A stretch of 64,000 nt of DNA from a virus, in the IMG/VR virus record IMGVR_UViG_3300021197_001787, positions 64,001 to 128,000 of that record; one strand, 5' to 3'. The stretch's first letter is position 1, and every line of letters begins with the position of its first letter. Shown here one piece after another: positions 10,190 to 60,270 of the stretch. Both the position numbers and the translations under genes were made by a program. The notes under the pieces were generated by a model. It did no database searches. It was not told the DNA's origin and saw only the letters and a list, made by a program, of their open reading frames with translations.

Positions 10190-10399
10190 CTAATACGTAG
10201 GTTCAGGTATCGGAAAAAGTTTATGTTCACTAACTTTTTTTATTTTACCTTCGCCATCAATGAAGATTTCATAATCATAAAAGTCGTCTCTCGGCAATAT
10301 GTTTAAAATCACAGCCATTTTTTTTATTTTTGCCAATGATTCTATTTCGTCGTTGGGAAAGGGTATATAAATTACCCATTGGTCTACTTTGTACTTCAT
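10190..10399 (-). CDS. Small SH3-like family protein (divergent)
   Basis: YKVDQWV..AVILNI..YEIF..KLFPI pattern. Confidence 0.5.
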   Translation of the reverse strand: MKYKVDQWVIYIPFPNDEIESLAKIKKMAVILNILPRDDFYDYEIFIDGEGKIKKVSEHKLFPIPEPTY

Positions 10400-10893
10400 T
10401 TGTAATTTGGCTTGTAATTTTTCAAAACATCATACAGTTTGCCGGGTGAAAGATTTGGTGTTCTATAAATATACAAATCATCCCACATTACTATTCTAGC
10501 TTTAACAAGAGCATGGCCTATCCATTCAGAACAATACCATTTATCTCTATGTTTAATTAAATATGGAAATATTTGTGAACAAATCATGCCGACCCAGTCG
10601 TATTTAGCTCCGTTAGTCTCACTTATAAAGCTATTTAGTTGCTTAAGCTGATAATCTCGTACCGGTTTTCTCCAACTTAATTCAAAACTTAAAAAATCCC
10701 AATCTTGTAAATTTTTTACATCATAAACGGAGCGCGCTGAAACTTTACCTGTTAGTACAGGTGAAATACTAATCCAAGTTATTTTATTAGGCAATATTAA
10801 TTCAGCATGACTATACTTGCTTTTTGTCCACCAGCGCACAATTTTATTAATCCAATTGCCACCGCCTTTATAAAAAGCAATTTTTATAATCAT
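10396..10893 (-). CDS. Permuted papain-like (YiiX/NlpC-P60 permuted) enzyme
   Basis: YSHAEL, GAKYDW, WYCSEW. Confidence 0.7.
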   Translation of the reverse strand: MIIKIAFYKGGGNWINKIVRWWTKSKYSHAELILPNKITWISISPVLTGKVSARSVYDVKNLQDWDFLSFELSWRKPVRDYQLKQLNSFISETNGAKYDWVGMICSQIFPYLIKHRDKWYCSEWIGHALVKARIVMWDDLYIYRTPNLSPGKLYDVLKNYKPNYK

Positions 10894-10937
10894 ATTAGTA
10901 AAATATTCTCCTATTTTTAATTATACAACTTTTTTAT

Positions 10938-11180
10938 TCATCTTGAAACTAAATTAATAAAATCTGAAGGAATATACTCAATTCGGCCAGTTTTAAACCA
11001 GTATATGGTTAATTGATCCTGATAAATTTCATAATCTGGGTCACCTAAAAAATATACATGGTTTTGTACATCAATGACAATACCAGTCATAGGCTCCTCT
11101 TCCCAATAAATAATTGATATATCCTCTTGGACTATATCTCCAATTTCAAATTGGAAATAATTTTTATCTTCATTCCACAC
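10938..11180 (-). CDS. Small SH3-like family protein
   Basis: FEIGDIVQ..GIVIDV..IYWF. Confidence 0.6.
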   Translation of the reverse strand: MWNEDKNYFQFEIGDIVQEDISIIYWEEEPMTGIVIDVQNHVYFLGDPDYEIYQDQLTIYWFKTGRIEYIPSDFINLVSR

Positions 11181-11187
11181 ATTTTAA

Positions 11188-11388
11188 TTAGAGTTCGCGT
11201 TTTAAACTTTTTCTCATATACTCAACATTTTCTCTTTTATCTAATACTGTTCTTTCAACTTCTTCGGTCTCTAAATCAAATTGTTCTTTAATTTCCCAAA
11301 GCGCTTCTTCAATTGTGTCTTCTAATCGTTCTTTTATAACACTATCAACTTTTTGCTTTTTATCTTTTTTGAAAATCCAATTAAACAT
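11188..11388 (-). CDS. Hypothetical protein
   Basis: Start moved to MFNWIF; the track's longer start lies inside the tmRNA. Confidence 0.55.
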   Translation of the reverse strand: MFNWIFKKDKKQKVDSVIKERLEDTIEEALWEIKEQFDLETEEVERTVLDKRENVEYMRKSLKREL

Positions 11389-11408
11389 TTTATATACCCC
11401 CTGTGATA

Positions 11409-11752
11409 TGGTGGAGACGGCGGGAGTCGAACCCGCGTCCAGAATAAGTCTAATTGTAGTCATTCACAAGCTTATCAGTTTTTATATCCCCTAGCTGAAC
11501 GGGTAGACGGTTATATTCTAAAGCTTACCGTCCTGTTGCCTTAGATGGTTTGATTTTTGCAACTTATCTGTTGTTTTGATTAGATTGGAAAGAAGGTTCT
11601 AATCAACCTCCCGATTAAGCCGCTAAGCGGACAGATTCGAAGTGGTTATTGTTATTAGCAATTATTTTTTGTATCTGCGTTTAAAGTCTGCTAATACGTT
11701 TGACTGCTTGCACTTTTCCTCTTTCTTACCCTGTCGAAACCATGGCATCCCC
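11409..11752 (-). ncRNA. ssrA: tmRNA; tag peptide ANNNNHFESVRLAA* at 11615-11659
   Basis: 5' GGGGATGCCATGGTTTCGAC; 3' GACGCGGGTTCGACTCCCGCCGTCTCCACCA; internal tag ORF ending LAA-TAA. Confidence 0.95.
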
Positions 11753-17112: not shown

Positions 17113-17376
17113 TCATATATTATTTTCTTTATAAGTTTGTGATACCAATCTTAGTGTAAAGGTAAAAAATGAAAGTTCTATACTGTTATCATCCAGTGGG
17201 ACTACTCTAGAAATTGACACAAGACGATTTGAGCGTACTTCATTTTGTATATCAACTAGAATACCTAGGTATTCAACCCAGTCATTCGTTTCTTCTGAAA
17301 ACTTAGACCAAGCAACGATATCGCCTACCTGTAATTTCTCGGCGCTAGAGTATCCAAATTCTTTTTCTTGTTGCAT
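17113..17376 (-). CDS. Small SH3-like family protein
   Basis: LQVGDIVAW..LGILVDI. Confidence 0.6.
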   Translation of the reverse strand: MQQEKEFGYSSAEKLQVGDIVAWSKFSEETNDWVEYLGILVDIQNEVRSNRLVSISRVVPLDDNSIELSFFTFTLRLVSQTYKENNI

Positions 17377-17569: not shown

Positions 17570-17880
17570 TAATTAAATCCTACTTCTTCTAATTCTTCAA
17601 AAGGTACCGCAAACAAAAAATTTCCGTCATAGATTAAAACTCTTTCAAATTCATCAAATTCATAATCAACAACATAAACCTTAGCTCCACAAAATAATCT
17701 TTTATGGGCTCTTTGGGCCGGCACCCAGAACCATTTTTCTTCTTTATTTTTACCTTTACAATTAATGTAACAAGGATTTATCAATTTATCGTCTGGATTG
17801 GGTGTTTTACCAGATATCTGTCTTATAATTTGTCTCAATCTTTCCTCATCTAAATTTTTCCATGCCATATCAATAACCAC
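17569..17880 (-). CDS. Hypothetical protein
   Basis: ORF track, coupled. Confidence 0.6.
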   Translation of the reverse strand: MVIDMAWKNLDEERLRQIIRQISGKTPNPDDKLINPCYINCKGKNKEEKWFWVPAQRAHKRLFCGAKVYVVDYEFDEFERVLIYDGNFLFAVPFEELEEVGFN

Positions 17881-18130
17881 AACTCACTAGTTTTAGACAA
17901 GTATTCAAATCATTCCTATCATACTGTGTCTCTGCTAGTAAGTATTGTTTGTTTAGATCATTAAACACTTCATGTTCATCGTCCATGAAAAATAATTTAT
18001 CATACCATATCCATTTTACAATAAAATTGTCTTTTTTTAAATCGGTTATGATACCTAATTTGATGTTTTGATAATTTTCAGAAAAATATAAGCTAACAAT
18101 ATCGCCTAGCTTAATCTTATTGCGTAACAT
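17870..18130 (-). CDS. Small SH3-like family protein
   Basis: IKLGDIVSL..LGIITDL..VKW. Confidence 0.6.
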   Translation of the reverse strand: MLRNKIKLGDIVSLYFSENYQNIKLGIITDLKKDNFIVKWIWYDKLFFMDDEHEVFNDLNKQYLLAETQYDRNDLNTCLKLVSCGY

Positions 18131-28269: not shown

Positions 28270-28509
28270 TTATGCTTTAGAAACTATTTCTAACGAAGTA
28301 AAGCCATAATCAAAAATAAGATTTTCATTTAAGATTAAAACACGAACATACGGAAACATTGTTTCTTGTTGCGTTATCGCCTTATGTAAGACAATGCCTA
28401 ATTTGTTTTTGTTAACTTTAACAAGATCGCCTACACTATAGGAACTCATCCACCCATTTTCTGTAATATGGAAACCATCTTCGCTATGGTATTCTTTCAT
28501 TCTGCTCAA
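28270..28509 (-). CDS. Small SH3-like family protein
   Basis: YSVGDLVKV..LGIVL. Confidence 0.6.
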   Translation of the reverse strand: MSRMKEYHSEDGFHITENGWMSSYSVGDLVKVNKNKLGIVLHKAITQQETMFPYVRVLILNENLIFDYGFTSLEIVSKA

Positions 28510-29833: not shown

Positions 29834-30136
29834 TTATGGACTCTTCACCATCGCAGCTCCAAGGGCGTCATAGGCGAGCTTTTCGTCTAATCGCACAAGC
29901 TCGCTTTCATAATGGTACGATAAATTGCCCTTTATATCGGGCGTCTTGTTGAACCACTTTATTCCACACAGCACGTAGCGACCTGTAATCCCCCTTTCCA
30001 CGATTTCTACGATGGTGCCCCATGATGACGTGCTTTTAACGAACGGTTCCATGACAGTGAAAGTCACAACATCCCCCAACTTTACTCTCGTTTCTTTCGC
30101 CTTCTTGATTTTATTGTTAAGCGTGCTCATTGGCAA
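29834..30136 (-). CDS. Small SH3-like family protein
   Basis: VKLGDVVTF..GTIVEI..IKWF. Confidence 0.6.
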   Translation of the reverse strand: MPMSTLNNKIKKAKETRVKLGDVVTFTVMEPFVKSTSSWGTIVEIVERGITGRYVLCGIKWFNKTPDIKGNLSYHYESELVRLDEKLAYDALGAAMVKSP

Positions 30137-30387
30137 GTTAGCCTTAAGTGATCACGTATCTCAGTCGTTTTTTTAGCCGCTTTAAACCAAAATATTGTAT
30201 ACGTACGATATATTGAGCCGCCCGTATACCCTGCCGTGGAACTGCTCTTTTCTATTACAACACCCAGTGACCCATCCCTGGCCTCATCATAAATCATGAA
30301 GTCTGGTGTATAGCTATACCCACAAAACGTAACCAAGTCCCCCACGTCTAGTTCTTCTAGATGTATATTGTAATCATCGATGCCCAC
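30127..30387 (-). CDS. Small SH3-like family protein
   Basis: LDVGDLVTF..LGVVI..IFWF. Confidence 0.6.
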   Translation of the reverse strand: MGIDDYNIHLEELDVGDLVTFCGYSYTPDFMIYDEARDGSLGVVIEKSSSTAGYTGGSIYRTYTIFWFKAAKKTTEIRDHLRLTCQ

Positions 30388-30931: not shown

Positions 30932-30952
30932 ATAGTTCTCTCCTTACTATGA

Positions 30953-31010
30953 TTATATTATACCAGTTCTCGCGCGTTAAGTCAAGCTGTCACATGTCAA
31001 AAGAATGTCA
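30953..31010 (-). promoter_or_regulatory. Cassette promoter (TGACA-N6-TGACA box + sigma70 elements)
   Basis: TGACA TTCTTT TGACA N9 TTGACT. Confidence 0.75.
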
Positions 31011-31212
31011 AGCGCATAAGTAGTTGGAATCGTTGGTGATACACGGCATTGTAAGTCATTGATATACTGCATCTTTCCTGTCACATGAACTCACACATTG
31101 ACAAACAGTGTGTAAGGGTCTATATATTAAATCTAAACACACAAACAGTCACATTAAAACAGAACAATATAATACACACCGCATTGTCTGACACATAACT
31201 ACGCACATAACA

Positions 31213-31404
31213 CTAACCACCAACAGCCACTATAGGATTATACAGGCCATCTACTACAGGTATAGCAATCGTCTGTATGCATTTAAGAGAGTTATTATAT
31301 AATGTATAGTTATTCTCATCCTTGTCTACTACAACACAATAGCCCTTTGCGCTGTTAGTTATATTATATTTACTTATGAGTTCTCCGGCCTTAAACATCT
31401 TCAC
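31213..31404 (-). CDS. Small SH3-like family protein (divergent)
   Basis: FKAGELIS..YCVVV. Confidence 0.5.
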   Translation of the reverse strand: MKMFKAGELISKYNITNSAKGYCVVVDKDENNYTLYNNSLKCIQTIAIPVVDGLYNPIVAVGG

Positions 31405-31714
31405 AGTCCTTGGCTAATACGTCAGCTTCAACCGCCTGTTTCGTCATCTCAGCAATATCAGCAACTGTTAGTTTAACTTCTTTTCTATGTTTATTCTGTT
31501 CTCTCACGAGTTTATTGTAACGCTTCTTCTCGTATGCATTTACATGTAGGTTCTCAATACCCAACGCTTCCAGCTTTGACTTGAATAGTTTAACATCTTG
31601 TAGTCTCGCTGAGTCTTTGCCTACTCTTGAATCCGCGCGAGTTATGACGACTTCGCGAAAGTTCAAACGGCCTTCAACCATTTTAAGTATTGTTTGAGAG
31701 ATATAGTATTTCAT
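31391..31714 (-). CDS. Hypothetical protein
   Basis: ORF track. Confidence 0.55.
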   Translation of the reverse strand: MKYYISQTILKMVEGRLNFREVVITRADSRVGKDSARLQDVKLFKSKLEALGIENLHVNAYEKKRYNKLVREQNKHRKEVKLTVADIAEMTKQAVEADVLAKDCEDV

Positions 31715-31719
31715 AATAA

Positions 31720-32090
31720 AAGAGGGATCTTTGCGGCGGCCCAGTTCCGTTTATCACTGTTCAGCAATAAAGGAGAAGTAGAGTCTTTGTTTATGGTCGC
31801 GCTCTACTCGACTAGTTTGCTCTGGCTTCTATGTTTATAAGGCTGGCGGCTCTCCTATTATTCCAGCGCGTTATCATGAGGGTGGCTAATCCTCTTATAG
31901 CCGTTACTGTAGGATCTTCATTATCTTTAACCTCAAGGGTTAGGGTTGGACATCTTACTCTGCGACACATACAGGCCCGTCGCAGCACTCGGCACTATGG
32001 AGTTGGGGGTTTTCATTTTCTTTACTTTACCTCTCGCGCTTTGCGCTTTACGGGTTAGGTGTGATTATAGGATAGCTTCGCCGATTGCGA
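31720..32090 (-). ncRNA. Candidate structured non-coding RNA
   Basis: No credible CDS; several short hairpins (see findings). Confidence 0.3.
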
Positions 32091-32154
32091 TACCAAGCCC
32101 AAAGGCAAGGAGCAAGAGCGGACTAAAAAAGAGGATTCCAAGAAAGTCGTTCAT

Positions 32155-32556
32155 TTAGATGCCCTCACCAGCAGCTAGCGCAGCAAGATCGGCCTTCTCT
32201 TCATCGCTAAGGTGTTCCTTGGCTTTGTTGCGGAGGCTGGCTGCGCTCATCTTGGTGGGGTTCTTATGCTCACCGTTGCAGCCATCAGCAAAAGACTGCG
32301 CGCCTTCTGGTGTGTTGTAGTCAATGACGGCTTGCTTGCCCTGCGTTGTGGAGTTGCGGAATACGCGCCACATCTGAGGACCAACTTGCTCAACAGTCCA
32401 GCCGGTGAGTTGGCGACGAGTTGGCGGTGCGGGCAGTGGCTTGTATGCTTTCTTACGGCTTGACGTGACTTCGATGTTGTTAATCATCGGGTCAGGGCGA
32501 TACCGAAAGTTGTCGTTAGAGTCAGTGAGTTGGTCGAGGCTGAATGATGTTGGCAT
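32155..32556 (-). CDS. Hypothetical protein
   Basis: Cassette promoter plus AGGAG RBS. Confidence 0.7.
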   Translation of the reverse strand: MPTSFSLDQLTDSNDNFRYRPDPMINNIEVTSSRKKAYKPLPAPPTRRQLTGWTVEQVGPQMWRVFRNSTTQGKQAVIDYNTPEGAQSFADGCNGEHKNPTKMSAASLRNKAKEHLSDEEKADLAALAAGEGI

Positions 32557-32584
32557 TGATATATCTCCTTACTTGATATACTAT

Positions 32585-32638
32585 ATTATACACTAAAAAT
32601 GGGGGAAAGTCAACAACTAAGTTGTCAAGAGAATGTCA
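32585..32638 (-). promoter_or_regulatory. Cassette promoter
   Basis: TGACA TTCTCT TGACA N9 TTGACT N17 TATAAT. Confidence 0.85.
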
Positions 32639-32767
32639 GGTAGTTTGTGACAAGAGGATAAGAGAGAAAAGCATCAGAGCATTGACCCTGATCATTGTCT
32701 GGCAAAACTCGCGCGATACCAAGTGAAGGGCGATAGGGTGAAGGTTGGATTGTCCGCGAAGTTTCAT
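32636..32767 (-). CDS. 43-aa peptide with hydrophobic C-terminus
   Basis: MKLRGQSNLHP..; own promoter and RBS. Confidence 0.5.
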   Translation of the reverse strand: MKLRGQSNLHPIALHLVSREFCQTMIRVNALMLFSLILLSQTT

Positions 32768-32794
32768 AATGTTCTTTCCTTGTTTGGTATAACC

Positions 32795-32849
32795 ATTATA
32801 CCATTAAAAGCAGGTGATTGTCAACAACTAAGTTGTCAAGAGAATGTCA
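32795..32849 (-). promoter_or_regulatory. Cassette promoter
   Basis: TGACA TTCTCT TGACA N9 TTGACA N18 TATAAT. Confidence 0.85.
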
Positions 32850-32853
32850 GGGA

Positions 32854-33036
32854 CTAGTCAATAGACTCAACACTACAAGTATCTTCATCACCCACATTCT
32901 CAATGATATTGCCGTTCCAATCCTCATCTTCTTCGATCTCGTCTACAAGCTCTTGCTGGAACTCAATCAGGCGATCGAGCAGTTCCGAAGCATCGGCGTT
33001 GCGGGCGGTAATGTCAAATGTCAGTCGGTATGTCAT
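32854..33036 (-). CDS. Acidic hypothetical protein
   Basis: Own promoter and RBS. Confidence 0.65.
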   Translation of the reverse strand: MTYRLTFDITARNADASELLDRLIEFQQELVDEIEEDEDWNGNIIENVGDEDTCSVESID

Positions 33037-33063
33037 AGTCTTTTTTCCTTGTTTGGTATAACC

Positions 33064-33117
33064 ATTATACCAGAAATGTGGGGGTAAGTCAACAACTAAG
33101 TTGTCAAGAGAATGTCA
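33064..33117 (-). promoter_or_regulatory. Cassette promoter
   Basis: Near-identical to the two preceding copies. Confidence 0.85.
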
Positions 33118-33339
33118 GTCGTTGCAGCAATCGGGGTGTTCCCAGTTGCTCACTTGCCAGTCGCTAATACTACCGGAGTAATGGAGCGCATCAACGAAGT
33201 TGCTCCAAGCCTCGGAGCGCGCTGGAATATCAACGTGTCCAAGGTTCTGCTCATCCTCTTGAATCATCGGAAGGATAAGATCAATAAACTGCTCGCGGGC
33301 AGTCTCCCAAAGAGTAACGGTGTCGAGTTGTGAAGCCAT
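33115..33339 (-). CDS. Hypothetical protein
   Basis: Start at MASQL after AGGAG. Confidence 0.65.
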   Translation of the reverse strand: MASQLDTVTLWETAREQFIDLILPMIQEDEQNLGHVDIPARSEAWSNFVDALHYSGSISDWQVSNWEHPDCCND

Positions 33340-33368
33340 AGAATAATCTCCTTTCTTTCTATACATAT

Positions 33369-33421
33369 AATATAACCCGTTGAGAGGTAAAAGCAAGCAA
33401 GATCGTGTCAGGGAAATGTCA
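33369..33421 (-). promoter_or_regulatory. Cassette promoter
   Basis: TGACA TTTCCC TGACA N9 TTGCTT .. TATATT. Confidence 0.8.
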
Positions 33422-33595
33422 AGAGATTACCATCAAGTTTCGCTCACTAATAACTTCAGTTTTACTATTCGACCACAGGATCATCCACCATACGGTTGAC
33501 CATTGGTGGCTCTCGGCATTTTTGACAACGACGCCCACAGGCGCTGATTTGCGGAACTGATCGCGCCGCCACTTAACAAGATCACCTACTCTCAT
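33419..33595 (-). CDS. Small SH3-like family protein (58 aa)
   Basis: Below cutoff; MRVGDLVKW..VGVVV..ILW. Confidence 0.7.
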   Translation of the reverse strand: MRVGDLVKWRRDQFRKSAPVGVVVKNAESHQWSTVWWMILWSNSKTEVISERNLMVIS

Positions 33596-34083
33596 CCTGC
33601 CACCTCAAGATCGCGTTCTGGGAATGTCGGCCATCCGAATCTTTTACTATCTGACATGTCACCAATCCAAGCGATGCGAGCGAAGCCACAGCCGCCTTCT
33701 GCCATCACAAGCCCAACCTTGCCGGCGTAGCCTTGACGGGTTGCGCGCTTGTTGGTTTTACCTCTCACCAGTTGGCCAACCTTAAACTTTGGTGGCTTCG
33801 GAAGTAGGGACTCGATCATCTGAGTCGCGTTGTCACGGAATGAGCCGGCAAAATAGTCAGACTGCATATCTGAGTAGTCATCACAGCGGCGAACGTGGAA
33901 GTTGCAGGCGTCGGCCTCAAGTTGAGCAGCCGTATCGCTTGCCATCGCTCCGTTAGCCAGGAATGAACCAACATAGCCGTTATGCTGGAAACTCCAGCGC
34001 GTTCCGTTATACTCTACATCAATATCAATACCTTGCTTCTTGAAGTGAGTTTTGATTTTCTTGATTACTGCTTTTACTTTCAT
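33592..34083 (-). CDS. Two-domain protein with C-terminal SH3-like family domain
   Basis: FKVGQLVRGK..VGLVM..IAW..LEV. Confidence 0.65.
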   Translation of the reverse strand: MKVKAVIKKIKTHFKKQGIDIDVEYNGTRWSFQHNGYVGSFLANGAMASDTAAQLEADACNFHVRRCDDYSDMQSDYFAGSFRDNATQMIESLLPKPPKFKVGQLVRGKTNKRATRQGYAGKVGLVMAEGGCGFARIAWIGDMSDSKRFGWPTFPERDLEVAG

Positions 34084-34256
34084 GCTACCACCTTCATGTC
34101 TTCATCTTTAACCCAGCCGCTTGTGCGCGTCTTCGGATAGAATACCTGCATCAACGTGGGAACCGCATCATGGAACCGTAGCACCACACCAAGATTTCCC
34201 TCTTTACCGCTACTCAGCCTGTATTTGCTTTGAACCATGCTTCCGACTTTGATCAT
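34080..34256 (-). CDS. Small SH3-like family protein (58 aa)
   Basis: Below cutoff; MIKVGSMVQ..LGVVL. Confidence 0.7.
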   Translation of the reverse strand: MIKVGSMVQSKYRLSSGKEGNLGVVLRFHDAVPTLMQVFYPKTRTSGWVKDEDMKVVA

Positions 34257-34281
34257 AGATTTCTCTCCTTTCTATACATAT

Positions 34282-34334
34282 AATATAACCCACTGAGAGT
34301 GAAACGCAAGGCTATTTGTGTCAAGGAAATGTCA
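34282..34334 (-). promoter_or_regulatory. Cassette promoter
   Basis: TGACA TTTCCT TGACA N9 TTGCGT. Confidence 0.8.
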
Positions 34335-34511
34335 GTAAACGAGTTGGATGTGTTCTTTTCTCACCGTCTCGCGCTTTCCGTCAGCAGCCCACTCGACGAT
34401 CCACCAGTCGCTCGGCAGCGACAGCGCAGGCCCGACAATGATCCCAACCGGACCCCAACCTTTGCTTGATGCACCATAGTGATTTCTTCGCACCAAGTTG
34501 CCGACTTTCAC
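34332..34511 (-). CDS. Small SH3-like family protein (59 aa)
   Basis: Below cutoff; MKVGNLVRR..VGIIV..VEW. Confidence 0.7.
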   Translation of the reverse strand: MKVGNLVRRNHYGASSKGWGPVGIIVGPALSLPSDWWIVEWAADGKRETVRKEHIQLVY

Positions 34512-34669: not shown

Positions 34670-34673
34670 AATC

Positions 34674-35138: not shown

Positions 35139-35162
35139 TTGCTTTCTCCTTTCTATACATAT

Positions 35163-35615: not shown

Positions 35616-35954
35616 TTATGCAACCTTGGCCCTTTGAGCATCGACATGCTTACACTTACGCCGCCAGCCAAAACCGGGACACGTACACGTCCACGTGCCG
35701 CCGTTGTCGGTCACGGTATAAGTGTTGCCAGTGCTGCCTTGGACCTCGTATGAGGTAACGTCAGCCGGTTGTGCCGGTGCTTCTCGTTCCTCAACGATCA
35801 TATACTCACCAACCCGGTCAAGTGTTAGGGTTTCTGGCACTTCAACCCAATGTTGACCAGACACAGCCCACTTCTGGCCGGCCCTATCGGTGTAAAGCAT
35901 TGGGTTCATACTGACCACAATAGGCAGCGTTTTATTCTTCGTTGTCATCTTCAT
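35616..35954 (-). CDS. SWIM zinc-finger protein
   Basis: YTV..WTCTCPGF..CKH. Confidence 0.75.
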   Translation of the reverse strand: MKMTTKNKTLPIVVSMNPMLYTDRAGQKWAVSGQHWVEVPETLTLDRVGEYMIVEEREAPAQPADVTSYEVQGSTGNTYTVTDNGGTWTCTCPGFGWRRKCKHVDAQRAKVA

Positions 35955-36195
35955 TCTCCGTGGAAGGTCTATGGTTGAGGTAAATATCGGTCATGTCTTT
36001 TGACCAGAAGTCGTCGTACCCTGATACATAATAAGGGCTGATCTCAACTGGATTGCGCTCAAAAAAGTCCTCCAGCATTGAAACGATTTCTTCCATACGA
36101 AGTTCACGAGCAGACTTGTTTTCGTCGGCTTTGGCTTCAGCCATGGCCTTCTTCTTCTCGCGGTATTCGTCAAGGTTTACTATCTCTCCCATCAA
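35932..36195 (-). CDS. Hypothetical protein
   Basis: MGEIVNLDEYR start. Confidence 0.6.
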   Translation of the reverse strand: MMGEIVNLDEYREKKKAMAEAKADENKSARELRMEEIVSMLEDFFERNPVEISPYYVSGYDDFWSKDMTDIYLNHRPSTENEDDNEE

Positions 36196-36527
36196 AACGG
36201 CCTGCTATCGCTCATTGGTGAACACTCCCAAACCTTCGGGTGCATGATCACCGGGCCACCAGTTGTGTACTTGGCGAGATTCACGTGACAGGAAGTTGTC
36301 ATAGAATGAAAGCCGTTGGCTGGTGCAGTGAAGTCGGCGATGATGCAGACACCAGCCGGAGTACGTTCGCCGATCTTTAAGTCATAGCTGAATAGCTCCG
36401 CGCTTCCATTTGGATATGATATGCTTGTTAAAGAACACCTGTGATTACGCGCACTTACGCCGTTCCTCCAAGCATCAAGCACGCCGTCATTTGTGCGAGA
36501 CTTACCATAGATCCCCAGCGCGTTCAT
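36192..36527 (-). CDS. Hypothetical protein
   Basis: ATGA-coupled. Confidence 0.6.
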   Translation of the reverse strand: MNALGIYGKSRTNDGVLDAWRNGVSARNHRCSLTSISYPNGSAELFSYDLKIGERTPAGVCIIADFTAPANGFHSMTTSCHVNLAKYTTGGPVIMHPKVWECSPMSDSRPF

Positions 36528-36712
36528 GCTTCACCTGCTATACGCGGTAGTGCTGAGAGCGTTGTCAGGAAAATATCCCGCATAACTTCGTTTTCCTCTT
36601 CAGCCAGTTGCGAGGCTACCATCAGGCAAGTGATGACATTCTCACATGTTTCGCGACTCTCATCCATTGGTGTTAGTGACCCTGTGACGTTGGGAACATT
36701 ACTTTCAAACAT
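36524..36712 (-). CDS. Hypothetical protein
   Basis: Promoter and RBS. Confidence 0.6.
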   Translation of the reverse strand: MFESNVPNVTGSLTPMDESRETCENVITCLMVASQLAEEENEVMRDIFLTTLSALPRIAGEA

Positions 36713-36734
36713 TTTATCTCCTTTCTATACTATA

Positions 36735-36777
36735 AATATAGCATTAAATAGTTTAATCGTCAAGCATTAAGTTGTCA
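36735..36777 (-). promoter_or_regulatory. Cassette promoter (distal half-site degenerate)
   Basis: TGACA N9 TTGACG .. TATATT. Confidence 0.7.
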
Positions 36778-36966
36778 AGACTCGCTGACAACTTCTAGCC
36801 ATGGTTCAGGCTCCCAGTCTACTTTACCTGAACCACCTATCCACATTATACCTATTTGTGGCCGTGTGGTAGAAATGGCTTTAGGGTGCCTGTCCACTAC
36901 AATGCCGACAAGCCCCGTGTCATGCGTGTGCATCTTCACCAGATCGCCTTTTTTAATGCGCTTCAT
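36775..36966 (-). CDS. Small SH3-like family protein
   Basis: IKKGDLVKM..VGIVV..IMW..LEVVS. Confidence 0.7.
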   Translation of the reverse strand: MKRIKKGDLVKMHTHDTGLVGIVVDRHPKAISTTRPQIGIMWIGGSGKVDWEPEPWLEVVSES

Positions 36967-37241
36967 CGCTCACCTCTAAAGATACGGTCAGCGAAACGCT
37001 TTGCGTTGCGAAGGTTATACATGTCGCCAATATCTTTGACTTGATTAGATTCCTCATCATTCAGATGATTAACAGATTCCTTCATAAACTTGCGGAGCAT
37101 CTTGATAAACTCAATCTTCCCGAACGATTCTTTGTGATATGAGCCGGTACTCACATACTTTTCATGCATGATACGCACCATCTTTAGTGCGTCGTTGATG
37201 CCTTCTCGGTCGTCGGAGTCTATTACGATTGTCATTTTCAT
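36963..37241 (-). CDS. Hypothetical protein
   Basis: ATGA-coupled. Confidence 0.6.
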   Translation of the reverse strand: MKMTIVIDSDDREGINDALKMVRIMHEKYVSTGSYHKESFGKIEFIKMLRKFMKESVNHLNDEESNQVKDIGDMYNLRNAKRFADRIFRGER

Positions 37242-37252
37242 TGTTTAGCCTT

Positions 37253-38500
37253 CTATTCATCAATGGCGATGATGCGTTCATTAGTCGAGAAGTAAGGGCG
37301 CGCTGCATATTGCTTCGTGGTCATCCACATACGCTGACACTTGGAGGCAACAGGCTTCGGTGCCATCAGATCAGTCAGAACGATGTGGCCGTCAAAGCCG
37401 CGCTCATTGACATACTTTGTTGGAGCGTTGAAACATGTGCCACCAGTTAGAACGCGCTCGGTCTTCTTACTCTGCCCCTTCTTCCAAGTGTAAACCTTAT
37501 CCTCGGCAACGCGGGTATCGAAGGGGATCACAGTGAACTCCGCGACCTCTGCCAGCTTGTTAAGCTCGGAGAAGAATGCGGCAAGCATGCCATCGTCAAC
37601 AGAGCCGGACTGATCGATACTGATCGCAATCTTAGCGTGACGACGGACACGTTTGCCGGGGTGAACCTTTGGGAATCGCTTGTTAAGTCGGCGCGGCGTG
37701 CTACGCTTGTCAGCGCGCTGGCTTGTTTTGACGAAGTAACGAAGAACTTTGCGCCAGTCAACCTTTGATGAGATCCGATCCATAATATCGCGCCGCACAC
37801 CAGACGAGACTGAACCCCAGTTGCGGGACTTTTCAGCCTCTTCGGCTGCCTTCTTGACTGCTTCTTTAAGACGCTCCTTGGCAATCTCATTGACAGTTGC
37901 ATCACCAGAATCGCCAAAAGCATCGTGGTCGTCAAGTGAGTCAGCATCACCAAACGCATCTCCAGGCTCACCCTCGCCTTCACCTTGCTTCTCCTCGTTT
38001 TCCTTCTGCATCTTTTCAAGCTGAACCAGATACCACTCGTAGGTCTGACATGCTGGCAGATCCTTAAATGGGCCTTCACCCGGCATAACGCCCTTCATCG
38101 GCTCGGTAGCACCCTCAAGGATGGGGCCGGGATCAGCTTCACAGGGAAGTTTGCCCTTCATCTCTGGCAGGCCATTGATAGACAAGTCCATGGCGATATT
38201 ATCAATACGCCTGATACCATCAGCCGGCAGGCGCTTGGTCACATGCTCAAAGATAATATGGTAAAACTCATGCATGAGGATACCGAGCTTGTGGTCATCA
38301 GACAGAGCAGCAAAGAATACCGGGTTATAGAAAAGCTCAAACTGGGCGCGCTCCTTGTTGACACGCACGCCAGCAGTTGGAATAGAAGTGGTGGCCACCT
38401 TATCAATCCGACGCGAGAGCGCGGCAAAGAACGGTTCGCGCATAAGCAGGCGAGCGGTGTGCATGTTGAGATTGAAGGGCTTTTTGGTATCGTCAGTCAT
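37253..38500 (-). CDS. Metallopeptidase-like plus vWA domain protein (DUF2201 type), MoxR partner
   Basis: MHEFYHI, NIAMDLSIN, IDQSGSV, GGTCF, VLTD. Confidence 0.85.
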   Translation of the reverse strand: MTDDTKKPFNLNMHTARLLMREPFFAALSRRIDKVATTSIPTAGVRVNKERAQFELFYNPVFFAALSDDHKLGILMHEFYHIIFEHVTKRLPADGIRRIDNIAMDLSINGLPEMKGKLPCEADPGPILEGATEPMKGVMPGEGPFKDLPACQTYEWYLVQLEKMQKENEEKQGEGEGEPGDAFGDADSLDDHDAFGDSGDATVNEIAKERLKEAVKKAAEEAEKSRNWGSVSSGVRRDIMDRISSKVDWRKVLRYFVKTSQRADKRSTPRRLNKRFPKVHPGKRVRRHAKIAISIDQSGSVDDGMLAAFFSELNKLAEVAEFTVIPFDTRVAEDKVYTWKKGQSKKTERVLTGGTCFNAPTKYVNERGFDGHIVLTDLMAPKPVASKCQRMWMTTKQYAARPYFSTNERIIAIDE

Positions 38501-38521
38501 TGTTCTTTTCCTTACTCTTAT

Positions 38522-38574
38522 AATATAACGTGTTGGCAGTGCTTTGCAAGCGATATTGTGTCAAGCAAATGTCA
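38522..38574 (-). promoter_or_regulatory. Cassette promoter
   Basis: TGACA TTTGCT TGACA N9 TTGCAA. Confidence 0.8.
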
Positions 38575-46546: not shown

Positions 46547-46916
46547 CTAACTCAACGCCATTGGTAATGGCGTCAATATATCCGGCGGGTACTTTTACAA
46601 CAAGTGTGCGCCACCCCATCCACTTGGGCCATATCTCATTGAAAGGGAAGGATGGATGTTGCGATTCAATAGTAGAAGCAACCTCATCCATTTCTATCTG
46701 TACCTCTAAATGATTGCCACCATCATCCGAGTTTGCGATTACTTCAAAACGTCCATCAAAATAGTTTGAAATATGTACTAACATTTCGTTAATAGCTGCC
46801 TGCTTTTCTGCCTTTTCCCCGTTGAAAAAAATGTTAGCCATGTCTAATCCCCCTATTAGTAAATAAGCATCAAAAAACGATTTAACTTTTTCAAACAAAT
46901 GTACCATATAAATCAA
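46536..46916 (-). CDS. Hypothetical protein (start uncertain)
   Basis: ORF track. Confidence 0.55.
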   Translation of the reverse strand: MIYMVHLFEKVKSFFDAYLLIGGLDMANIFFNGEKAEKQAAINEMLVHISNYFDGRFEVIANSDDGGNHLEVQIEMDEVASTIESQHPSFPFNEIWPKWMGWRTLVVKVPAGYIDAITNGVELDDY

Positions 46917-47098
46917 TCTACTTTTTGTATGGGTACAATAAAATACTTGTTAAATCTATATGTTTTGTCAGAGCCGAAAAACATAATAGTATACTCGCCG
47001 TTCTCGTTAATCTCTCCAACTACGACAGCATTGCGATTTTTAGGCATGCCCTCTTCGTGGACGCCATCTTTCAATGTAACCAAGTCACCGACTCTCAC
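46913..47098 (-). CDS. Small SH3-like family protein
   Basis: GTG start MRVGDLVTL. Confidence 0.7.
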   Translation of the reverse strand: MRVGDLVTLKDGVHEEGMPKNRNAVVVGEINENGEYTIMFFGSDKTYRFNKYFIVPIQKVD

Positions 47099-47285
47099 TA
47101 ATAACCTCCAGCTTTCCAGAGTCAACCCACCAAAGTTCTCCGTCATTAAATATAACTTGCGCTGATGTTGTGTCATGCCCTGTCTTAGAGATTTGAACCA
47201 CCAAGCCATGCTCTCTACGTGGATCAGCCTCAAACACATCTCTCTCCAGCGCACTTTCAAACTTTACTAAATCGCCGACTTTCAT
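47085..47285 (-). CDS. Small SH3-like family protein
   Basis: MKVGDLVKF..EVISESR*. Confidence 0.7.
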   Translation of the reverse strand: MKVGDLVKFESALERDVFEADPRREHGLVVQISKTGHDTTSAQVIFNDGELWWVDSGKLEVISESR

Positions 47286-47383
47286 TGCAGTATCATCCAG
47301 AAAATAGACGAAAAAATGTAGTAACTACAATAGATAAACAATGCATCAAAGAAAGTTCTAATCAAAAAACTACACACTTTCAC
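47282..47383 (-). CDS. 33-aa membrane peptide
   Basis: MKVCSFLIRTFFDALFIYCSYYIFSSIFWMILQ; coupled at both ends. Confidence 0.55.
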   Translation of the reverse strand: MKVCSFLIRTFFDALFIYCSYYIFSSIFWMILQ

Positions 47384-47552
47384 TTAGTACCTCCAGAGTC
47401 CATACCGTATTCCAATCAATCGGTTCTTCTTCCCACTCATCAAACCAGCGTACTTGTACAGTCTTTTTATCTTCAGCCATGGCCAAGACAACACCGTGTC
47501 CTAGCCATGAGTCAGGATCATTCTTCACTCTTACCAGATCGCCCACTTTCAT
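47370..47552 (-). CDS. Small SH3-like family protein
   Basis: MKVGDLVRVK..GVVL..VRW..EVLSESV*. Confidence 0.7.
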   Translation of the reverse strand: MKVGDLVRVKNDPDSWLGHGVVLAMAEDKKTVQVRWFDEWEEEPIDWNTVWTLEVLSESV

Positions 47553-47700
47553 TTATAATCTCAAAATCAAAACATTCTATGCATCTTTCGTCTATTGACT
47601 TACGGCGACACAGCTCAATGATTGCGCGCCTGTGATGCTTAATCATATTATAATGCGATTCGATGCACCTGTCAATCAGTTGTTTCTCGTATTCCTTCAT
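47518..47700 (-). CDS. Hypothetical protein
   Basis: ORF track. Confidence 0.5.
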   Translation of the reverse strand: MKEYEKQLIDRCIESHYNMIKHHRRAIIELCRRKSIDERCIECFDFEIINESGRSGKSEE

Positions 47701-58000: not shown

Positions 58001-58001
58001 A

Positions 58002-58379
58002 TTATCTCCAAAATAATTGTATCCCTACGATCAAAAACGACAATAAAATGCATAACATTGTTTTTGTTGTAAACATAGTTTCGTTCAACAGCCACCATGT
58101 CAGCACAGGGAAAGTAAAGTAAGAGGCGCCAAAGCCAAGCATTCTGGCTGTCCAAGCTGCGTTCGTTGCATCAACCGCAATCTTCGTTCCATACCAGAAC
58201 ATAACACTGGCGGGGATTCCAAAGATTATAGCAGCATGGAATGGCTTACCTTCCCACCAAGTCCAGATGTAATGCGAGTAACACTGGAACCAAACGCAGG
58301 CCTGTGCTGTCGCAAAAAGTGCAAAAGTTTTAGCTAATTCAATAGTTGGCAAGTATAACCTCCTTCGCTGAATCTTCAC
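58002..58379 (-). CDS. Small multi-pass membrane protein
   Basis: About 4 hydrophobic segments. Confidence 0.6.
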   Translation of the reverse strand: MKIQRRRLYLPTIELAKTFALFATAQACVWFQCYSHYIWTWWEGKPFHAAIIFGIPASVMFWYGTKIAVDATNAAWTARMLGFGASYFTFPVLTWWLLNETMFTTKTMLCILLSFLIVGIQLFWR

Positions 58380-59103
58380 GACTTGTGATTCTGCCGTATT
58401 GGTCTAATAAAATTGTTGTTGGAAAGTGTTGATACATTTTAATGATTCGTGGGTGGTAAACATAATCTAAAATTACTTTTTTGTCAAATGTTTTTAACTT
58501 CTCGCATAAATTAGCGTGGTGAACACGTGTTTCTTCAAAGCCTTTATTGATGCCATCATCTAAAAAGTTATAGCTAAAACGACCTGCTGGGATGTAAATG
58601 TAATCAGCATCAGTATCTTGAGTCACCGTATCAACAAAATCAATATCACCGTTCCAAGCAACGTCAAAATTAGTTTTTTTAAATCTCTTGATGTAGTTTA
58701 TAGCTAATGGGTTAAAGTTTTTACTGTCAAGTATTCCAGATTGAATCATGCCCTCCGAAGAGCATCTGTTTAAAATAAAAAACATCGCGGCTCTAACTAA
58801 GTGATCAGAAAACGAACGAAACCTAGTTTGATACACATCAAAAAGTTTTTCATCCTCAATAGGCCAAAAATGGTTAACAGCGTTAACAATAGTTTCAGGC
58901 GAATCAAACATACTTCTCCAAAAATCGTAAATAACATAGCTAGTAGTATGACTGAGGACATGCCGTCCAGATACACCTAGATTTATCTCGGTATTTCCGC
59001 CATATAAAAGATAAGTATCGACTTTTGAATCAATAGGAATTATCTCTTTTAGCAAAGACAGAGATTTAGGAGAAAATCTTAAATCTTTAATCGGCGAATT
59101 CAT
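58339..59103 (-). CDS. Dam/D12-class methyltransferase-like protein with degenerate catalytic motifs
   Basis: RAAMFFILNRCS; DYIYIPAG in place of DPPY. Confidence 0.6.
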   Translation of the reverse strand: MNSPIKDLRFSPKSLSLLKEIIPIDSKVDTYLLYGGNTEINLGVSGRHVLSHTTSYVIYDFWRSMFDSPETIVNAVNHFWPIEDEKLFDVYQTRFRSFSDHLVRAAMFFILNRCSSEGMIQSGILDSKNFNPLAINYIKRFKKTNFDVAWNGDIDFVDTVTQDTDADYIYIPAGRFSYNFLDDGINKGFEETRVHHANLCEKLKTFDKKVILDYVYHPRIIKMYQHFPTTILLDQYGRITSREDSAKEVILANY

Positions 59104-59779
59104 TTTCTTGAAGTTTGTTCTTTAAGTTTTCAAGCTTTGTGCCAAGATTATGGACATCTGTAAGATCAATATCATTAATTTCGGAAAGCATCCGGTGCGC
59201 GTACTCCGGGGTCATTTTAGCTGGATCTTGCTGTGAAGTCAGCTCCTGGATCTGTTGACTTACAGCCTTAATCCTGTCAACATCAATTTCTGTACCTTCG
59301 GTGTCTCGATCCTGTTGCAATTTTTCTGCTAGTAGCTGTTTCTGTGTTTTTAAAGGCGGCATGATACTTTGCATTTCTGGTTCGTTCGCAACGTCTCCTT
59401 CAAGATTTGCGAAGCGTGCAAGTAAATCTTGTGCCTGCTCGGGCGTCAATGTGGAAGGATCAAAGCTAGAAATATCTGGCACGAGCTGCGCAGCTAGTTC
59501 TTCTGGTGTAGCAGATTGCCTCAGTTGATGCTCCTCTTGTTGATACTGAACGTATCCATCAATTATTGCATGAACATCATCTAACATCACATCAATACTC
59601 GCTAGTTCTTGCCTTAAGCCACTAATCTCATTGATTGTGTTAACTGTCATCAACGAGGCCATGTCTGGCACGCTAGCGACAATGGAAGTGAGTCTAGATA
59701 TAGACTTACCAAGAATTCGCGCGGTTTCCGGTGCAAGCTCATTTTCATCAATTGTATATTGAAGTTTTATCTTTTTCAT
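59087..59779 (-). CDS. Helical hypothetical protein
   Basis: ORF track. Confidence 0.6.
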   Translation of the reverse strand: MKKIKLQYTIDENELAPETARILGKSISRLTSIVASVPDMASLMTVNTINEISGLRQELASIDVMLDDVHAIIDGYVQYQQEEHQLRQSATPEELAAQLVPDISSFDPSTLTPEQAQDLLARFANLEGDVANEPEMQSIMPPLKTQKQLLAEKLQQDRDTEGTEIDVDRIKAVSQQIQELTSQQDPAKMTPEYAHRMLSEINDIDLTDVHNLGTKLENLKNKLQENEFAD

Positions 59780-59780
59780 T

Positions 59781-60071
59781 TTATCCTCTTAAAATTTGTT
59801 TTTTAGTGTGTAGTGTTTTTTCAATAAGTTCAGGCGAACCAATAACTACAATCTCGGTGCCTGTGTTTCCTTTATCAATAATCAGTTTGGAGAATCTGTG
59901 ATTAATGTCTAATTCCTCACTGATTAATCCTTGTTCATTTATTGTCCGAAAGCGATGTTCCTCCCTGACCATGACCACATGTTCGGGGTTAATAAAGACT
60001 TCGCGTAATGAATATTTCGCGTTGTTCGTAACAGCGCCAGTGCCGCAAACTTCTGTTAATCTAACTAGCAT
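59781..60071 (-). CDS. Hypothetical protein, weak FlbD-like pattern
   Basis: MLVRLT..VFINPEHV..IVV..ELIEK. Confidence 0.5.
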   Translation of the reverse strand: MLVRLTEVCGTGAVTNNAKYSLREVFINPEHVVMVREEHRFRTINEQGLISEELDINHRFSKLIIDKGNTGTEIVVIGSPELIEKTLHTKKQILRG

Positions 60072-60270
60072 CTGTCACCATTGGGTATACATCTCTTCTC
60101 TTTACGTTCCATTTGGCATTATTAGCATAAACACGATAAATATATTGACTCAACGTGCTTAAATAAACGCCAGTAATTGGCCTCTCCGTCATTCGTAATC
60201 TCATTCCTCTCTCTGTCTCAATCCACAGTTCAACGTCCTGTGGGATGTGTACTAGATCCCCTTGATTCAT
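60061..60270 (-). CDS. Small SH3-like family protein
   Basis: MNQGDLVHI; ATGA-coupled to groEL. Confidence 0.55.
   Translation of the reverse strand: MNQGDLVHIPQDVELWIETERGMRLRMTERPITGVYLSTLSQYIYRVYANNAKWNVKRRDVYPMVTDAS

What the first reader, a model, noticed from the sequence alone, without database searches (positions are those of the whole stretch)
10190..60270. About 35-member expansion of a small 'MKVGDLV' SH3/KOW-like protein family
Seen: about 35 ORFs or domains of 50-100 aa share (M)KVGDLV.(x)n.GIVV..(x)n.V.W..(x)n.LEVIS. About 25 lie in 31-47.6 kb, and several fall below the ORF-track cutoff (33419, 34080, 34332, 41799, 42128). The loops between conserved strands are highly divergent, and two copies are C-terminal domains of larger proteins (33592, 42356). 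Known: this spacing fits five-stranded SH3/KOW/Tudor barrels. Inference: a constant scaffold with variable loops, expressed from strong early-type promoters, looks like a diversified binder library (anti-defence, host-takeover or decoy proteins).
Basis: partly seen in the sequence, partly recalled or inferred. Interest (0 to 1): 0.8.

Follow-up and report, generated by a model that had tools for sequence, protein, structure and literature searches.

The report
Chained SH3-like mini-protein genes in phage
An uncultured 194-kb marine phage gives about one gene in nine to roughly 30 old, individually conserved copies of a tiny, uncatalogued SH3-type barrel protein, joined by a short DNA joint that ends one gene and starts the next; what the proteins bind is untested.

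Summary
The family is real. A profile built only from relatives in other phages finds 29 copies in the window, one more marginal, and none on the other strand. That compares with about 35 claimed. The two outermost claimed copies (10190, 60270) fail.

AlphaFold gives a confident five-strand SH3-like barrel. No Pfam or PHROG family fits, and no cultured phage carries it. Related marine phages carry 11-25 copies.

- The conserved head (MKVGD) and tail (LEVIS-ESR-stop) are largely one ~26-nt DNA joint: ribosome-binding site, next start, and previous stop inside the Gly-Asp codons. In relatives, 278 of 675 neighbouring pairs overlap by exactly 14 nt. Whole genes are swapped at these joints.
- The copies are not a fast-diversifying library. 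Each has orthologs at 55-84% identity against 20-42% to its best paralog. Loops are under purifying selection, like strands (dN/dS about 0.1).

Sigma-70-type promoter cassettes and a high-GC3 island fit early expression. The most likely role, inferred only, is a set of early adaptor proteins that each dock on a different target.

This scan has reported similar arrays on other phage DNA, including the same kind of joint in another marine phage.

The parts
47370..47552 (-). family copy, 60 aa
   Evidence: external HMM i-E 4.7e-15
47085..47285 (-). family copy, 66 aa; reference for the fold model; its stop lies in the 14-nt joint with the next copy
   Evidence: i-E 1.1e-19; AF2 pLDDT 89.5
46913..47098 (-). 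family copy, 61 aa, GTG start inside the joint
   Evidence: i-E 8.9e-7; junction
46349..46546 (-). family copy, 65 aa; its stop is the first TGAC box of a promoter cassette
   Evidence: i-E 4.9e-8
45870..46079 (-). family copy, 69 aa; its stop lies in a TGACA box
   Evidence: i-E 5.9e-9
45283..45474 (-). family copy, 63 aa; first of a four-gene chain; 23-nt overlap because the joint TGA is lost
   Evidence: i-E 2.5e-16
45054..45305 (-). family copy, 83 aa, long n-Src-like insert
   Evidence: i-E 3.7e-8
44864..45067 (-). family copy, 67 aa, 14-nt joints on both sides
   Evidence: i-E 3.1e-13
44578..44877 (-). family copy, 99 aa, with a C-terminal extension
   Evidence: i-E 1.5e-9
43990..44163 (-). 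family copy, 57 aa, directly behind a promoter cassette (44215-44187)
   Evidence: i-E 4.7e-12
41443..42283 (-). chain of five copies (starts at 42283, 42141, 41966, 41812, 41634), each overlapping the next by exactly 14 nt
   Evidence: i-E 4.2e-9, 7e-9, 0.0015, 6.3e-9, 3.1e-14; junctions
38765..39001 (-). family copy, about 78 aa (start uncertain), overlapping the end of the AAA_5 ATPase gene
   Evidence: i-E 5e-9
38572..38775 (-). family copy, 67 aa, 11-nt overlap with the previous copy
   Evidence: i-E 1.3e-4
36775..36966 (-). family copy, 63 aa; keeps LEV with non-SD codons (CTA GAA GTT); terminal gene
   Evidence: i-E 5.8e-18
35195..35395 (-). family copy, 66 aa, joined by the 14-nt joint to a non-family lipoprotein-like gene (35382-35615)
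   Evidence: i-E 1.8e-14
34508..34669 (-). family copy, 53 aa
   Evidence: i-E 3.9e-10
34332..34511 (-). family copy, 59 aa, 4-nt GTGA overlap upstream
   Evidence: i-E 1.5e-9
34080..34256 (-). family copy, 58 aa
   Evidence: i-E 7.5e-9
33592..34083 (-). 163-aa protein whose C-terminal residues 97-161 are a family domain
   Evidence: hhalign E 6.5e-5 over 58 columns; external HMM 3.8e-4
33419..33595 (-). family copy, 58 aa
   Evidence: i-E 8.3e-13
30127..30387 (-). family copy, about 86 aa, with an N-terminal extension
   Evidence: i-E 1.2e-5
29834..30130 (-). family copy, about 98 aa, with N- and C-terminal extensions
   Evidence: i-E 1.7e-5
28270..28509 (-). divergent family copy, about 79 aa
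   Evidence: i-E 0.0012
17870..18130 (-). divergent family copy, 86 aa
   Evidence: i-E 0.0053
17113..17376 (-). marginal candidate copy, 87 aa
   Evidence: i-E 0.14; 0.11-0.26
10938..11180 (-). family copy, 80 aa; outlier far from the main array
   Evidence: i-E 2.4e-6
42356..43006 (-). conserved 216-aa protein: helical N-domain plus C-terminal SH3-like barrel. Related at fold level only; not a profile member
   Evidence: hhalign E 0.24; AF2 pLDDT 94; Foldseek neighbours; homologs in about 28 loci
30952..47675 (-). region holding 12 sigma-70-type promoter cassettes (TGACA boxes, then TTGACN, 17 nt, TATAAT-like) that head the gene chains

Best explanation
SHOWN
- The window holds 29-30 genes or domains of one uncatalogued family of SH3-like five-strand barrel proteins, mostly 50-100 aa. 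The whole phage has about 31. It is a 194-kb uncultured marine Far-T4-type phage, and the genes sit in its hyperplastic, probably early, region.
- They are real genes under purifying selection.
- Each paralog is an old lineage with its own orthologs in related phages.
- Only about 15 core positions are shared. The RT-like and n-Src-like loops differ between paralogs but are conserved between orthologs.
- The head MKVGD and the tail LEVIS-ESR-stop are two readings of one ~26-nt joint, TGGAGGTnATnAATGAAAGTCGGTGA. It carries the Shine-Dalgarno site in the Leu-Glu-Val codons. It also carries the start of the next gene, and the stop of the previous gene inside the next gene's Gly-Asp codons.
- Chains that do not end in a joint often end with their stop codon inside the first TGAC box of the next promoter cassette.
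- Between relatives, whole genes are inserted, lost or swapped exactly at the joints.

INFERRED
- The joint gives termination-reinitiation coupling.
- The joint also serves as a short recombination handle.
- The proteins are made early from host-RNA-polymerase promoters.
- Each acts as a small monomeric adaptor that docks on a different host or phage macromolecule. This is host takeover in the broad sense, and could include counter-defence.
For: Family and count. Fold: AF2 pLDDT 89.5. Structural neighbours are Spt5/NusG KOW, PsaE, NdhS, PetP, Tudor, Mind bomb and YorP, at Z 6-7.9.

No catalogued family fits: Pfam and PHROGs.

Spread: 2259 clusters at E<=1e-3 in metagenomes, mostly 50-70 aa. 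There are 768 copies in 93 loci, always co-directional. Related complete phages carry 11-25 copies against 25 here by the same method.

Joint:
- 278 of 675 adjacent pairs overlap by exactly 14 nt, and 33 by 4 nt.
- The Gly codon is GGT in 275 of 275 chained heads, against 30% GGT elsewhere in these genes.
- Val3 is GTC in 70% against 19% background. Glu is GAG in 98% against 44%.
- Terminal genes keep the tail motif in only 46% and an SD-like site in 18%.
- In 73 of 160 terminal genes the stop codon is a TGAC box.

Evolution:
- Orthologs are 55-84% identical, against 20-42% to the best paralog.
- dN/dS is 0.08-0.13 in strands and about 0.10 in loops.
- One ortholog group has 8 different downstream and 7 different upstream coupled partners.

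Timing: promoter cassettes. GC3 is 0.47-0.54 in the array against 0.28-0.36 elsewhere, and the phage tRNAs read A/T-ending codons.

No common ligand: pI ranges 4-11 and net charge -11 to +8, with no conserved surface position.
Against: - No binding partner, expression data or phenotype exists, and the host is unknown.
- Conserved strands with variable loops is what any old, divergent small barrel family would show, so it does not by itself indicate binders.
- The dN/dS pairs were picked by protein identity bands, which biases dN downward. Comparisons of the window with its relatives have saturated dS.
- Early timing rests on consensus promoter matches and codon composition only.
- Recombination at the joint is inferred from gene order, not from observed events.
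Confidence: 0.6

Rival explanations
1. The copies are nucleic-acid-binding small barrels of KOW or LSm type. They would tune transcription, RNA stability or translation, as proposed for T4 GoF.
For: The top fold neighbours include Spt5 and NusG KOW domains and the ribosomal proteins eS4 and eL14/uL24. T4 has three early proteins with an LSm/SH3-like barrel, and one of them has an RNA-stability phenotype (PMC12152347). About 38% of the 768 copies have pI above 8.
Against: - pI is bimodal over 4-11, and many copies are strongly acidic, down to net charge -11.
- No surface position is conserved across the family.
- The KOW Pfam model matches 1 of 26 copies, at E 0.072.
- hhalign finds no relation to GoF or MotB.1.
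Confidence: 0.2
2. The array is a fast-diversifying binder library in an arms race.
For: Loops differ greatly in sequence and length between paralogs. The set of copies differs between related phages.
Against: - Loop dN/dS is about 0.10, no higher than in strands, in 42-112 independent ortholog pairs per identity band.
- The best paralog identity in the window is 42%, so there are no recent duplicates.
- Variation between phages comes from gain, loss and swapping of whole genes, not from loop hypermutation.
Confidence: 0.1
3. The genes are mostly selfish or near-neutral cassettes. They would spread because the joint lets them insert in register and be translated for free, with little benefit to the phage.
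For: Any ORF placed at the joint receives an SD, a start and a stop. A non-family gene (35382-35615) uses the same joint. Neighbours are shuffled freely. 197 of 295 clusters are singletons at 45% identity.
Against: Purifying selection is strong (dN/dS about 0.1). Several ortholog groups are kept in 14-29 of the sampled loci.
Confidence: 0.1
4. Translationally coupled neighbours assemble into a hetero-oligomer, like the Sm/LSm rings built from paralogs.
For: Overlap coupling often marks subunits made in equal amounts. The fold class includes ring formers.
Against: The same ortholog group is coupled to many different neighbours in different phages. Chain length varies from 2 to 6. The model lacks the N-terminal helix of Sm folds.
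Confidence: 0.05

Closest known systems
[quoted passage not shown] 2025, PMC12152347)
   Same: Small five-strand SH3-topology barrels with very dissimilar sequences, encoded among non-essential early genes of a T4-type phage. Function unknown.
   Different: T4 has three copies and this phage about 30. The T4 proteins carry extra C-terminal domains. There is no detectable sequence relation (hhalign probability 0.1%), and the family profile finds nothing in T4. T4 has no chaining joint.
PeSL (promoter-early stem-loop) cassettes and modular shuffling in hyperplastic regions of T4-type phages (Arbiol et al. 2010, PMC2839356; PMC4122927)
   Same: Repeated short regulatory elements with strong sigma-70-like promoters lie between small non-essential genes. 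They mark where genes are gained, lost and swapped between relatives.
   Different: Here the commonest repeat is a coding joint of SD, start and stop shared by two reading frames, not an intergenic promoter-terminator pair. Terminator-like stem-loops are not enriched (22 found against 15.2 +/- 4.3 expected). The promoter cassettes carry tandem TGACA boxes.
Stand-alone SH3-like accessory subunits PsaE, NdhS and PetP, and KOW domains of Spt5/NusG
   Same: Same fold and size (Z 6.6-7.9, rmsd 1.7-3.2 A over 51-61 residues). These are single-domain proteins that dock on large complexes, which is the way of working proposed here.
   Different: No sequence membership. PF11061 finds nothing in the genome at E<=1. 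KOW matches 1 of 26 copies below threshold. The phage has no psbA.
Mind bomb SH3 repeat (PF18346), MIB/HERC2 and UBE2O SH3-like domains
   Same: These are the best sequence-profile matches among solved structures (E 6e-4 to 2e-3). Long eukaryotic repeat proteins with these domains turn up in the profile search. A BFVD neighbour is named 'UBE2O-like SH3-C'.
   Different: The matches are weak and partly cover only the KVGDLV strand. PF18346 matches 1 of 26 copies at E 0.14 and nothing in the genome at E<=1.
Arrays of small SH3-like paralogs reported earlier by this scan on other phage DNA
   Same: Tens of tandem, co-directional, very divergent small SH3-like genes in accessory regions. One uncultured 204-kb marine phage was reported with the same kind of chaining joint.
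   Different: Those are AI notes on other genomes and I did not re-test them. The PHROG named for the Acinetobacter phage arrays (phrog_5785) has no match in this genome.

Membership tests
SH3-like small beta-barrel (fold class) | Five antiparallel strands forming a closed, bent barrel of about 60 residues, with RT-like, n-Src-like and distal loops | tested here: met
   AF2 pLDDT 89.5, strands at 6-9, 26-35, 39-46, 51-55 and 59-63. 145 chains reach Z>=5, and the top ones are all SH3-like: KOW, Tudor, PsaE, NdhS, Mind bomb.
KOW (Pfam PF00467) | Match to the KOW motif profile above the curated cut-off | tested here: not met
   1 of 26 copies matches, at E 0.072. The Spt5 KOW2 model matches 1 of 26 at E 0.011. 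All are below the cut-offs.
Mind bomb SH3 repeat (PF18346, SH3_15) | Profile match above 24 bits | tested here: not met
   1 of 26 copies matches, at E 0.14. No match in the whole genome at E<=1. Weak reciprocal signal only.
PetP / Tsr0524-like (PF11061) | Profile match, and a cyanobacterial b6f context | tested here: not met
   No match in the genome at E<=1 and no psbA. The resemblance is by fold and language-model features only.
T4 GoF/MotB.1/Frd.2 family | Detectable profile relation to the N-terminal barrels of GoF or MotB.1 | tested here: not met
   hhalign probability 0.07-0.10%. The family profile finds nothing in T4 at E<=1.
PeSL regulatory cassettes | Strong sigma-70-like early promoter | tested here: met
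   17 TTGACN-(16-18)-TAnnnT matches on the coding strand against 1 on the other. 56 promoter-like sites against 29.8 +/- 6.1 in shuffles. These are consensus matches only.
PeSL regulatory cassettes | Stem-loop terminator paired with the promoter | tested here: inconclusive
   22 terminator-like sites against 15.2 +/- 4.3 expected. Stem-loops were not examined cassette by cassette.
Translationally coupled overlapping genes (termination-reinitiation) | The start of the downstream gene lies shortly upstream of, or overlaps, the stop of the upstream gene, with an SD inside the upstream coding sequence | tested here: met
   14-nt overlap in 278 of 675 pairs, with consensus GGAGGT 7 nt before the start. 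Coupling itself cannot be assayed here.

The most novel reading that the evidence does not exclude
The joint and the TGAC-box promoter cassettes together form an integrase-free, plug-and-play cassette system. Any small gene recombined in at a joint is automatically given a ribosome site, a start and a stop. A whole clade of marine phages uses this to trade a pan-repertoire of specific SH3-like binders, thousands of them in all. These binders would decide which hosts and which defence systems each phage can overcome.
Probability: 0.25. Interest if true: 0.8.

Novelty: new variant of a known kind. Interest (0 to 1): 0.6.

Why it matters
About 11% of this phage's genes belong to one unnamed family. 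That family has more than 2000 sequence clusters in ocean metagenomes, and none is in Pfam, PHROGs or any cultured phage searched.

The conserved 'protein motif' turns out to be largely a dual-frame DNA joint. This warns against reading conserved termini as scaffold. It also gives a concrete, testable picture of how hyperplastic regions of T4-type phages chain, co-translate and exchange small genes.

If the proteins are target-specific adaptors, the family is a large natural set of compact binders and a likely source of host-takeover or counter-defence factors.

Tried and rejected
Contigs 90-98% identical to the window could therefore not be fetched for unsaturated dN/dS. I used one metagenome scan instead.
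A single copy was used instead.
- A search for longer, fused forms found none; this is weak evidence. Two-domain tandem forms of 106-132 aa do appear.
- tblastn of one copy against 50,697 phage records found nothing at E<=1.
- The family profile found nothing in Flavobacterium phage immuto, Microcystis phage Mel-JY01, Rhodothermus phage RM378 or T4.
- A full-text search for 'KVGDLV' gave only an unrelated paper. Literature searches found no description of this family.
- ESM Atlas returned 29 viral 'hypothetical' clusters and one PetP cluster. This gave no functional lead.
- The hetero-oligomer idea was dropped after the neighbour analysis. Complex prediction was not used because no defensible partner exists.
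- Window-versus-relative dN/dS was mostly saturated.
- Host identification was not attempted beyond one observation. Strong SD use and TTGACA/TATAAT promoters fit poorly with a Bacteroidota host, even though the nearest cultured capsid relative infects Flavobacterium.

Full report
CONTEXT
The window is bases 64001-128000 of a 194,231-base IMG/VR virus record rated 100% complete. Nearly all genes lie on the minus strand. The record encodes a Gp23-type capsid protein of 639 aa. Its nearest cultured relatives are Flavobacterium phage immuto (45% identity), Microcystis phage Mel-JY01 and Rhodothermus phage RM378. The long capsid protein and the RM378 link match the uncultivated 'Far-T4' phages (PMC4360716). 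The window also holds:
- a tmRNA gene and seven tRNA genes;
- GroEL, a PIN-PhoH protein and a MoxR-like ATPase with a VWA/DUF2201 partner.

OBSERVATION
A strict motif search found 18 hits, all on the minus strand. An HMM seeded from 16 of them converged on 26 copies in the window and 27 in the genome at i-E<0.01, with none in the other frames of either strand.

That test is circular, so I rebuilt the HMM from 743 copies found in other loci. It detects 29 window ORFs or domains at i-E<0.01. It gives 17116-17385 at 0.14, nothing on the plus strand, and a best score of 0.76 on shuffled translations.
- 24 copies lie between 33.4 and 47.6 kb.
- The C-terminal domain of 33592-34083 is a member.
- The C-terminus of 42356-43006 is not a profile member. 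With an alignment of 23 homologs it folds at pLDDT 94 into a helical domain plus a five-strand barrel. Its neighbours are nitrile hydratase beta, NdhS, PetP, Mind bomb and YorP.
- The two copies that define the finding's ends, 10190 and 60270, are not supported.

FOLD AND FAMILY
AlphaFold2 on the 26-copy alignment gives pLDDT 89.5, with five strands and a helical turn in the first loop. Foldseek and the VIA-align search return only SH3-like barrels. These are Spt5/NusG KOW, PsaE, NdhS, PetP, Tudor and PWWP domains, Mind bomb, UBE2O, R67 DHFR and YorP, at Z 6-7.9. That range is typical for a common fold and does not single out a superfamily. A profile search of PDB sequences gives weak matches to MIB1, HERC2 and UBE2O domains.

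No Pfam or PHROG model reaches significance for any of the 26 copies. The PetP, SH3_15 and phrog_5785 models find nothing in the genome.

The family is large outside this genome:
- 2259 clusters at E<=1e-3 among 1.8 billion representatives, mostly 50-70 aa, plus a few tandem two-domain forms.
- 247 hits in the word-indexed search, all unnamed.
- BFVD neighbours are mostly unnamed marine-virus proteins.

Related IMG/VR and metagenome contigs carry 3-22 copies per 10-20 kb. In total there are 768 copies in 93 loci, always co-directional. By the same search, related records (three rated 100% complete, two 78-87%) have 25, 19, 18, 11 and 14 copies, against 25 here. The nearest cultured phages and T4 have none.

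THE JOINT
The upstream regions and gene ends in the window show a recurring layout. Many copies start 14 nt before the previous gene's stop, and a GGAGGT sits in the previous gene's Leu-Glu-Val codons. Across all loci, 278 of 675 adjacent family pairs overlap by exactly 14 nt and 33 by 4 nt. The consensus is tTgGAGGTnaTnAaTGAAAGTcGGTGA. Read in one frame it is ..LEVI-S-E-S-R-stop. Read in the other it is M-K-V-G-D.

Counting overlaps with any upstream ORF of at least 40 codons, 464 of 768 copies begin this way.

Codon usage shows constraint at the DNA level:
- Gly4 is GGT in 275 of 275 chained heads that have Gly there, against 30% elsewhere in these genes.
- Val3 is GTC in 70%, against 19%.
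- Lys2 is AAA in 84%, against 51%.
- In genes coupled downstream, the Glu of LEV is GAG in 281 cases and GAA in 5, against 44% GAG background.

Terminal genes keep an h-x-h-h tail in only 46% and an SD-like site in 18%. The GD[LI]V head and a hydrophobic last strand also occur where no overlap exists. Examples are 36966, with CTA GAA GTT, and internal heads at 46546, 30387 and 11180. So these positions are also part of the protein fold.

Of 160 terminal genes, 73 place their stop codon in the first TGAC box of the following promoter cassette. A non-family lipoprotein-like gene (35382-35615) ends in the same joint.

EVOLUTION
Window copies have orthologs at 55-84% identity in relatives. They are only 20-42% identical to their best paralog in the window.

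For independent ortholog pairs, dN/dS is 0.08-0.18 in strands and 0.09-0.13 in loops, in every identity band from 60% to 99%. Picking pairs by protein identity biases dN downward. Unbiased reciprocal-best pairs between the window and its relatives have saturated dS but show pN far below pS, and loop dN is 1.05-1.9 times strand dN.

Between paralogs only about 15 columns are conserved. The RT-like loop ranges over 2-28 aa and the n-Src-like loop over 0-44 aa.

Gene order is modular. The 45474 group is followed by 45305=45067=44877 here. Elsewhere it is followed by 44877, by 45067, or by two other cassettes and then 45067. The 47285 group has 8 different downstream and 7 different upstream coupled partners.

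EXPRESSION TIMING (INFERRED)
Seventeen TTGACN-(16-18)-TAnnnT sites lie on the coding strand and one on the other. Most in the array are preceded by two more TGACA boxes and followed by an AAGGAG leader. Promoter-like sites number 56, against 29.8 +/- 6.1 in shuffles. The same cassettes occur in relatives.

The array is a codon-level island. GC3 is 0.47-0.54 there, against 0.28-0.36 in most of the genome. The phage tRNAs read TTA, ATA, AGA, AAA, AAC and ATG. From general knowledge, this fits early genes that rely on host tRNAs and later genes served by phage tRNAs.

FUNCTION
pI is bimodal over 4-11 and net charge runs from -11 to +8. No surface position is conserved. A single shared ligand, such as RNA, is therefore unlikely for the whole family.

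Old, individually conserved paralogs with paralog-specific loops fit a set of specific adaptors. The closest way of working is that of small stand-alone SH3-like subunits that dock on large complexes. This is inference; nothing here shows binding. The rivals are listed with their tests.

COMPARISON AND NOVELTY
The nearest published analogue is the three-member GoF/MotB.1/Frd.2 barrel family of T4 (PMC12152347). There is no sequence relation to it. The nearest published mechanism for the shuffling is PeSL-mediated modular exchange (PMC2839356). I found no paper describing this family or a dual-frame chaining joint.

Within this scan, similar arrays have been noted on other phage DNA. One is an uncultured 204-kb marine phage with a chaining joint. 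First-reader notes on this same genome pointed to the 14-nt junction and the TGACA cassettes before I measured them.

I rate the finding a new variant of a known kind: a phage hyperplastic-region gene family with an unusual size and an unusual coding joint.

Noticed in passing
window 32000-48000 against the rest of G000: Codon-level composition island. GC3 is 0.47-0.54 in the array, against 0.28-0.36 in most of the genome. GC2 is nearly unchanged.
   Followed up: partly
window 11409-11752 (-): Phage-encoded tmRNA gene with the unusual tag ANNNNHFESVRLAA.
   Followed up: no
window 40328-40413 and 48550-49551 (-): tRNA-Leu(TAA) sits alone inside the array behind its own promoter cassette. A cluster of Asn, Ile(TAT), Arg(TCT), Met and Lys(TTT) tRNAs follows the array. 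All but Asn and Met read A-ending codons.
   Followed up: no
window 37253-40067 (-): A MoxR-like AAA_5 ATPase (38988-40067) and a DUF2201 metallopeptidase/VWA protein (37253-38500) are separated by two family copies. The first copy overlaps the end of the ATPase gene.
   Followed up: no
window 42356-43006 (-): A 216-aa protein conserved in about 28 related loci. It has a helical N-domain and a C-terminal SH3-like barrel, an arrangement that Foldseek matches weakly to nitrile hydratase beta subunits.
   Followed up: partly
window 35382-35615 (-): A 77-aa ORF with a lipoprotein-like N-terminus (hydrophobic stretch, then Cys). It ends ..YESR-stop in the same 14-nt joint as the family genes.
   Followed up: no
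window 53467-56865 (-): A 1132-aa ORF with no Pfam family and no tblastn match in 50,697 phage records.
   Followed up: no
window 47518-47700 and 45283-45474 (-): Two joints where GGT GAT has become GGC GAT. The embedded TGA is lost, and the upstream gene reads on for 3-5 more codons to the next stop.
   Followed up: partly
window 41443-41460 (-): The last gene of the five-gene chain ends in a degraded joint (..CCAAGTCGGTGA) with no start codon, followed by a TTGACA box. It looks like the relic of a lost downstream copy.
   Followed up: no
P0151, P0177, P0185, P0198, P0241 (metagenome proteins): Proteins of 118-132 aa, each with two family domains. These are natural tandem fusions, as expected from small indels in a joint.
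   Followed up: no
L031:1456-3375 (genome 169619-171538): The major capsid protein is 639 aa. The Gp23 profile matches it in two pieces with an insert between them, in line with the longer capsid proteins reported for Far-T4 phages.
   Followed up: no
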